From NCBI RefSeq assembly GCF_003334355.1, contig NZ_QOWP01000010.1: a stretch of 64,000 nt of DNA; one strand, 5' to 3'. The notes beneath the pieces were generated by a model, which searched no databases, had not been told where the DNA came from, and saw nothing but the letters and a program-made list of their open reading frames with translations. This document shows, piece by piece, positions 63,967-64,000 of the stretch (positions within the stretch are counted from its first letter, which is position 1; each line of letters opens with the position of its first letter). The stretch is from Escherichia coli. Its GTDB lineage: Bacteria; Pseudomonadota; Gammaproteobacteria; Enterobacterales; Enterobacteriaceae. The position numbers and the translations under genes are program-made.

Positions 63967-64000
63967 GCCATTACTCCTGTTGTTCTGAAAGGTGCAACTT

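What the first reader, a model, noticed from the sequence alone, without database searches (positions are those of the whole stretch)
63993..63998. Possible PutA operator motif at the window edge
tgcaac (the reverse complement of GTTGCA) lies 27 bp upstream of the putA start. PutA autoregulates through GTTGCA motifs in the putA-putP control region, most of which would lie beyond the window end.
Basis: partly seen in the sequence, partly recalled or inferred. Interest (0 to 1): 0.1.

Follow-up and report, generated by a model that had tools for sequence, protein, structure and literature searches.

The report
Known PutA operator upstream of putA

Summary
That ORF is the trifunctional PutA, and its first 52 residues are identical to the crystallised DNA-binding domain.

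A single hexamer proves nothing: the window has 48 copies against 57 expected by chance. The 422-bp putA-putP intergenic region holds six GTTGCA hits at five sites, against about 0.3 expected. No 422-bp stretch of the window has more than three.

New detail comes from 71 Enterobacterales loci. The other four sites are almost universally conserved, and two of them sit on an invariant promoter-like block (TTGCAC, 17 nt, GATATT). The flagged site occurs only in E. coli, where it is intact in at least 99% of 5426 genomes. E. albertii has GCTATA at that position. The site matches 7 of 8 bases of the GGTTGCAC readout and shares a 13-nt exact block with the -209 site. It probably lies just downstream of the putA transcription start. 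Interest is low.

The parts
63993..63998 (-). GTTGCA core of the putA-proximal PutA operator, at -32 to -27 from the putA ATG
   Evidence: it belongs to a five-site cluster seen after extension
63992..63999 (-). 8-bp readout-equivalent AGTTGCAC, matching 7 of 8 bases of GGTTGCAC
   Evidence: Sequence. GGTTGCAC is the consensus of three conserved sites across 62-71 Enterobacterales loci and the base-readout consensus listed for PDB 2rbf in PMC4655474.
63983..63998 (+). 16-nt direct repeat TTCTGAAAGGTGCAAC. Its partner TTTTGAAAGGTGCAAC lies 177 bp further on, at window-equivalent 64160-64175, and contains the -209 operator.
   Evidence: 15/16 identical. The 13-nt exact block was reached in 97 of 20000 shuffles that kept the hexamers fixed. 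A natural 177-bp deletion ends exactly on these repeats.
63974..63978 (-). Shine-Dalgarno AGGAG of putA, at -12 to -8
   Evidence: Sequence; AGGAG occurs within 20 nt of the start in 62 of 71 related loci.
63811..63966 (-). Coding sequence for PutA residues 1-52, the ribbon-helix-helix DNA-binding domain that reads GTTGCA
   Evidence: 52/52 identical to PDB 2gpe and 2rbf chains
60004..63966 (-). putA, encoding the trifunctional repressor/proline dehydrogenase/P5C dehydrogenase (1320 aa)
   Evidence: annotated as putA in 5422 E. coli genomes

Best explanation
The hexamer is the putA-proximal member of the five-site PutA operator array in the divergent putA-putP control region of E. coli. When proline is scarce, PutA stays in the cytoplasm. 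The two-stranded beta-sheet of its N-terminal RHH dimer inserts into the major groove at GGTTGCAC-like sequences and represses both genes. When proline reduces the FAD cofactor, PutA moves to the membrane and the operators are vacated. That switch is established knowledge and was not tested here. The positions below are inferred. The sites at -77 and -67 overlap the -35 element and the spacer of a promoter-like block (TTGCAC, 17 nt, GATATT at -53..-48). The flagged site at -32 would then lie about 10-15 nt downstream of the putA transcription start, between the -10 element and the Shine-Dalgarno. A bound PutA dimer there would hinder promoter escape or early elongation and so reinforce autorepression. 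This fifth site was gained in the E. coli lineage; the other four are ancestral to Enterobacterales.
For: Shown here: the motif and its distance from the start. PutA identity and an RHH domain 52/52 identical to 2rbf/2gpe. Five clustered sites in 422 bp against 0.32 hits expected. An extended match AGTTGCAC to the GGTTGCAC consensus. A 13-nt exact block shared with the -209 site, reached in 97 of 20000 shuffles. The hexamer is intact in both major E. coli alleles, 4259 + 1115 = 5374 of 5426 genomes with an exact 50-mer. A promoter-like block TTGCAC-17-GATATT/GATAGT is present in 68 of 71 loci. From papers: PutA binds operators in the putA-putP spacer (PMC5879082), gSELEX shows that spacer is its only genomic target (PMC8249747), and the 2rbf consensus is cGGTTGCACc (PMC4655474). 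From memory only: Zhou et al. 2008 mapped five GTTGCA operators by gel shift, three needed for putA repression and two for putP. That matches the 3 + 2 layout found here.
Against: One hexamer occurs at chance frequency. The site is absent at this position from every non-E. coli locus examined: 69 of the 71 loci with the promoter core lack it, and E. albertii has CGCTATAC. Comparative data therefore give no evidence of function beyond fixation within one species, where the whole control region is at least 99% identical anyway. The transcription start is inferred from sequence conservation, not measured; the consensus scan found no promoter on the putA strand at its threshold.
Confidence: 0.85

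Rival explanations
1. The hexamer is a chance occurrence in the putA leader. It happens to resemble an operator but contributes nothing measurable to regulation; the conserved sites at -77/-67 and -234/-209 do all the work.
For: The hexamer frequency in the window is at or below chance. The site is not conserved outside E. coli. Across 71 loci only two lineages carry any GTTGCA between the promoter core and the ATG, close to the roughly 2 loci expected by chance for a stretch of about 58 nt (the expectation is my arithmetic, 58 x 2 / 4096 per locus). The first readout base is mismatched.
Against: The match extends beyond the hexamer to AGTTGCACCTTTCAGAA, including a 13-nt block identical to the -209 operator (97 of 20000 shuffles). 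The hexamer is intact in at least 99% of E. coli genomes. From memory, Zhou et al. 2008 report five operators with three acting on putA, and that count requires this site.
Confidence: 0.12
2. The motif is a CytR-type operator (octamer GTTGCATT, working with cAMP-CRP) rather than a PutA site.
For: RegulonDB models CytR sites as GTTGCATT repeats (PMC3013702). These share the same six bases.
Against: The octamer here is GTTGCACC, two mismatches from GTTGCATT. A one-mismatch search finds nothing at this site and no paired octamer nearby. The site sits in the known PutA control region alongside four GGTTGCAC-type sites.
Confidence: 0.02

Closest known systems
E. coli put control region operators (PutA RHH-GTTGCA; Zhou et al. 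2008 J Mol Biol 381:174; PDB 2RBF)
   Same: Same species and same locus. The RHH domain is identical. The GTTGCA core is the same and 7 of 8 bases of the GGTTGCAC readout match. There are five sites in a spacer of about 420 bp, three near putA and two towards putP.
   Different: Nothing differs in kind; this is that system. Within the array, this site differs from the others in having A instead of G before GTTGCA, in lying downstream of the inferred -10 element rather than on the promoter, and in being restricted to E. coli. Which operator number it carries in the paper could not be checked.
put control regions of other Enterobacterales (Salmonella, Citrobacter, Enterobacter, Klebsiella and others) and of Pseudomonas (PpPutA45-DNA, PDB 2JXI)
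   Same: All have an RHH-bearing PutA. A pair of GTTGCA sites 10 bp apart lies upstream of putA in 103 of 108 loci. The distal pair about 25 bp apart is present in 62 of 71 Enterobacterales loci.
   Different: They lack a site at -32. One small group (L019, L032, L077, L089) instead has an inverted TGCAAC at -42.
Other RHH repressors that autoregulate through short repeated sites (Arc, MetJ, CopG, ParD/RelB antitoxins)
   Same: Beta-sheet readout of a short major-groove motif, arrays of repeated sites over the regulator's own promoter, and autoregulation.
   Different: In PutA the RHH is fused to a 1270-residue membrane-associating flavoenzyme. Repression is relieved by relocation to the membrane, not by a bound small-molecule co-repressor or a partner toxin (established knowledge; PMC5293562).

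Membership tests
PutA operator of the E. coli put control region | Contains the GTTGCA core | tested here: met
   exact GTTGCA on the minus strand at 63993-63998
PutA operator of the E. coli put control region | Matches the extended base-readout sequence GGTTGCAC seen in the PutA52-DNA structure 2rbf | tested here: met
   AGTTGCAC matches 7 of 8 bases. Consensus from PMC4655474 and from 62-71 orthologous sites. The accepted -67 site, AGTTGCAA, matches only 6 of 8.
PutA operator of the E. coli put control region | Lies in the divergent putA-putP intergenic region, next to a putA that encodes the N-terminal RHH domain | tested here: met
   putA at 60004-63966 (minus strand), putP 422 bp away on the other strand, RHH 52/52 identical to 2rbf
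PutA operator of the E. coli put control region | Is one of a cluster of such sites, far above chance | tested here: met
   6 hits at 5 sites in 422 bp against 0.32 expected; 0 of 20000 shuffles reached 5
PutA operator of the E. coli put control region | Bound by PutA or PutA52, and required for repression of putA | not testable with these tools
   The primary paper (PMC2665032) is not held. Only region-level binding is documented in the held papers. The five-operator map is cited from memory.
PutA operator of the E. coli put control region | Conserved in orthologous control regions (expected of a functional site, though not strictly defining) | tested here: not met
   present only in the two E. 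coli loci among 71 Enterobacterales loci; E. albertii has GCTATA. Within E. coli it is intact in at least 5374 of 5426 genomes.
CytR operator | Octamer GTTGCATT, in pairs about 2 bp apart, next to CRP sites | tested here: not met
   no match with 0-1 mismatch at this site; the octamer is GTTGCACC and has no partner

The most novel reading that the evidence does not exclude
The -32 operator is a recent addition specific to E. coli. It may have been copied from the -209 operator, since the two share a 13-nt exact block and a 15/16 direct repeat. It places a PutA roadblock just downstream of the putA transcription start, so E. coli would autorepress putA more tightly than Salmonella, Citrobacter or even E. 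albertii. The same repeat pair also makes the promoter prone to deletion, as seen in strain 2013C-3492.
Probability: 0.4. Interest if true: 0.2.

Novelty: already known. Interest (0 to 1): 0.08.

Why it matters
It matters little for discovery. PutA autoregulation through GTTGCA operators is a well-characterised textbook case of a 'trigger enzyme' that doubles as a repressor. The one modest addition is comparative. Four operators and the promoter-like block they overlap are nearly invariant across Enterobacterales, whereas the flagged site is an E. coli-only gain. That makes it a small, testable example of operator turnover in a well-understood regulon.

Tried and rejected
1. I tried to read the primary operator-mapping paper and related reviews: PubMed id 18586269, PMC2665032, PMC2664619, PMC3715380, PMC2666929, PMC2242416 and PMC5650515. 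None is held, so the operator numbering and per-site affinities could not be verified.

2. Full-text searches for PutA with GTTGCA, and for PutA52, returned nothing relevant. Most hits for 'puta' were the word 'putative'.

3. The consensus promoter scan found no sigma-70 match on the putA strand at its threshold. I inferred the promoter from cross-genus conservation instead.

4. The CytR reading was rejected.

5. I considered whether the PGAP 'hypothetical protein' ORF that overlaps the operators is a real gene which might explain the conservation. I rejected this because the frame is broken at variable positions in other genera and in one E. coli strain.

6. I did not identify the exact strain of the window. 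The window carries the majority allele (T at 63986), not the K-12-like allele.

Full report
**1. Observation.**
The last 60 bases of the window read ...cttaaccccc atggtggtgg ttcccatgcc attactcctg ttgttctgaa aggtgcaact t. TGCAAC occupies 63993-63998, which is GTTGCA on the minus strand. The only long ORF here is 60004..63966 on the minus strand, 1320 aa with an ATG start. It matches NCBIfam NF008772, the trifunctional transcriptional regulator/proline dehydrogenase/L-glutamate gamma-semialdehyde dehydrogenase, end to end at 2657.8 bits against a cut-off of 1750.

A single hexamer has no statistical weight. The window contains 48 copies on both strands against 56.8 +/- 7.7 in dinucleotide-preserving shuffles.

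**2.
Window 63000-64000 is 100% identical to many complete E. coli chromosomes, and the region is annotated putA in 5422 of 5426 genomes. I took NZ_CP031321 as locus L001, where L001 2501-3501 equals window 63000-64000 and the offset is +60499. The putA-putP spacer is 422 bp with 38% G+C. It contains GTTGCA or TGCAAC at these positions:
- L001 3494, the window site.
- L001 3527/3529, one palindromic GTTGCAAC.
- L001 3539.
- L001 3671.
- L001 3696.

That is six hits at five sites. In putA-sense coordinates they lie at -32, -67/-65, -77, -209 and -234.

The window's background frequency predicts 0.32 hits (Poisson P about 1e-6 for six or more). None of 20000 shuffles of the spacer reached five. 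No 422-bp stretch of the whole window has more than three.

**3. The protein that reads the motif.**
Residues 1-52 of the window's PutA are 52/52 identical to the PDB chains 2gpe and 2rbf, both labelled 'Bifunctional protein putA'. From memory, 2rbf is the PutA52-operator DNA complex.

A held paper lists PutA/2rbf with the consensus cGGTTGCACc and base readout across GGTTGCAC (PMC4655474). Other held papers add three points:
- PutA binds operators between the divergent putA and putP and leaves them for the membrane when proline is high (PMC5879082).
- Genomic SELEX finds the putA/putP spacer to be PutA's only target in E. coli K-12 (PMC8249747).
- The 420-bp put control DNA is bound by PutA with a Kd of about 45 nM (PMC5293562).

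The primary mapping paper, Zhou et al. 2008 J Mol Biol 381:174, is not held. From memory it reports five GTTGCA operators, three critical for putA repression and two for putP. The 3 + 2 layout found here fits that.

**4. Comparative anatomy.**
I made one degenerate-pattern scan of the species-representative genomes for the RHH peptide GVKLDDATRE. It returned 120 loci from Enterobacterales, Pseudomonas and a few others. I oriented each on putA and mapped the motifs:
- A GTTGCA pair 10 bp apart lies upstream of putA in 103 of 108 loci with enough flank.
- The exact block GTTGCACAAAGTTGCAAC occurs in 71 Enterobacterales loci.
- 62 of those 71 also have the distal pair about 25 bp apart.

Per-site consensus sequences are AGGTTGCACT, GGTTGCACCttt, GGTTGCACAAAGT and AAAGTTGCAAC. 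These agree with the published readout.

The proximal pair sits on a promoter-like block. TTGCAC is invariant in 71 of 71 loci. After 17 nt comes GATATT in 54 loci or GATAGT in 14. In E. coli these elements lie at -76..-71 and -53..-48. I infer that this is the putA promoter, which puts the start near -41. The simple consensus scan did not call it.

**5. The flagged site is the exception.**
Between GATATT and the Shine-Dalgarno the alignment is not conserved. Only the two E. coli loci (L016, L056) have GTTGCA at -32. E. albertii has CGCTATAC where E. coli has AGTTGCAC. Salmonella, Citrobacter, Enterobacter, Kluyvera and Klebsiella show nothing similar. A separate small group (L019, L032, L077, L089) has an inverted site at -42 instead.

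Within E. coli the site is essentially fixed. 4259 genomes carry the window's exact 50-mer and 1115 carry the K-12-like 50-mer. The two differ only by T to A at window 63986, six bases outside the hexamer.

The site matches 7 of 8 bases of GGTTGCAC. It forms a 16-nt direct repeat, 15/16 identical, with the -209 site: TTCTGAAAGGTGCAAC against TTTTGAAAGGTGCAAC. The 13-nt exact block was reached in 97 of 20000 shuffles that kept the hexamers fixed.

**6. Mechanism.**
Shown here: motif, position, clustering, identity of the reader domain, and the conservation pattern.

Established elsewhere: the RHH beta-sheet reads GTTGCA, and repression is relieved when proline-reduced PutA moves to the membrane.

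Inferred here: the site lies about 10-15 nt downstream of the transcription start, so a PutA dimer bound there would impede promoter escape and add to the occlusion of the -35 element and spacer by the -77 and -67 sites.

**7. Rivals.**
- A non-functional chance hexamer remains possible, at about 0.12. It is supported by the lack of conservation outside E. coli and the mismatch at the first readout base. The extended identity, the fixation within E. coli and the recalled five-operator map weigh against it.
- A CytR-type GTTGCATT site is rejected: the octamer is GTTGCACC and has no partner.

**8. Verdict.**
The system is already known and interest is low. The only addition is that this operator is a gain in the E. 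coli lineage, unlike the four ancestral sites.

Noticed in passing
L125 (NZ_CP027445, E. coli 2013C-3492), aligned to L001 3484-3676; window-equivalent 63983-64175: This strain has a 177-bp deletion in the put control region. Its ends fall exactly on the two 16-nt direct repeats that contain the -32 and -209 PutA sites. The deletion removes the -77 and -67 sites and the inferred putA promoter. It is rare: only 2 of 5408 matching genomes show partial coverage of the 50-mer.
   Followed up: partly
L001 3522-3731 (+), window-equivalent 64021-64230: PGAP annotates a 69-aa 'hypothetical protein' (WP_000979516.1) inside the put control region in nearly all E. coli genomes, overlapping four operators. 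The reading frame is interrupted at variable positions in other genera and in E. coli E69 (20 aa), so it is probably a spurious call.
   Followed up: partly
L001 3440-3920 compared with window 63000-64000: The intergenic control region is at least 99% identical in 5341 of 5421 E. coli genomes. The adjacent first 1 kb of putA coding sequence is at least 99% identical in only 1299 of 5422. The non-coding control region thus varies less than the gene next to it.
   Followed up: no
L019, L032, L077, L089, about -42 from the putA ATG: A Pluralibacter-like group carries an inverted TGCAAC at -42 in the putA leader, a position where E. coli has nothing. This looks like an independent gain of an extra site between the promoter and the start codon.
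   Followed up: no
window 63986: The window has T here, the majority allele in E. coli (4259 genomes). K-12-like strains such as NBRC 3301 have A (1115 genomes). The window is therefore not from K-12.
   Followed up: partly
L001 1-3467 (NZ_CP031321, strain ST2350): putA in the genome used for the extension is annotated as a frameshifted pseudogene. Identity to the window breaks down upstream of the 1-kb match because of the resulting register shift. The window's own putA is intact at 1320 aa.
   Followed up: no
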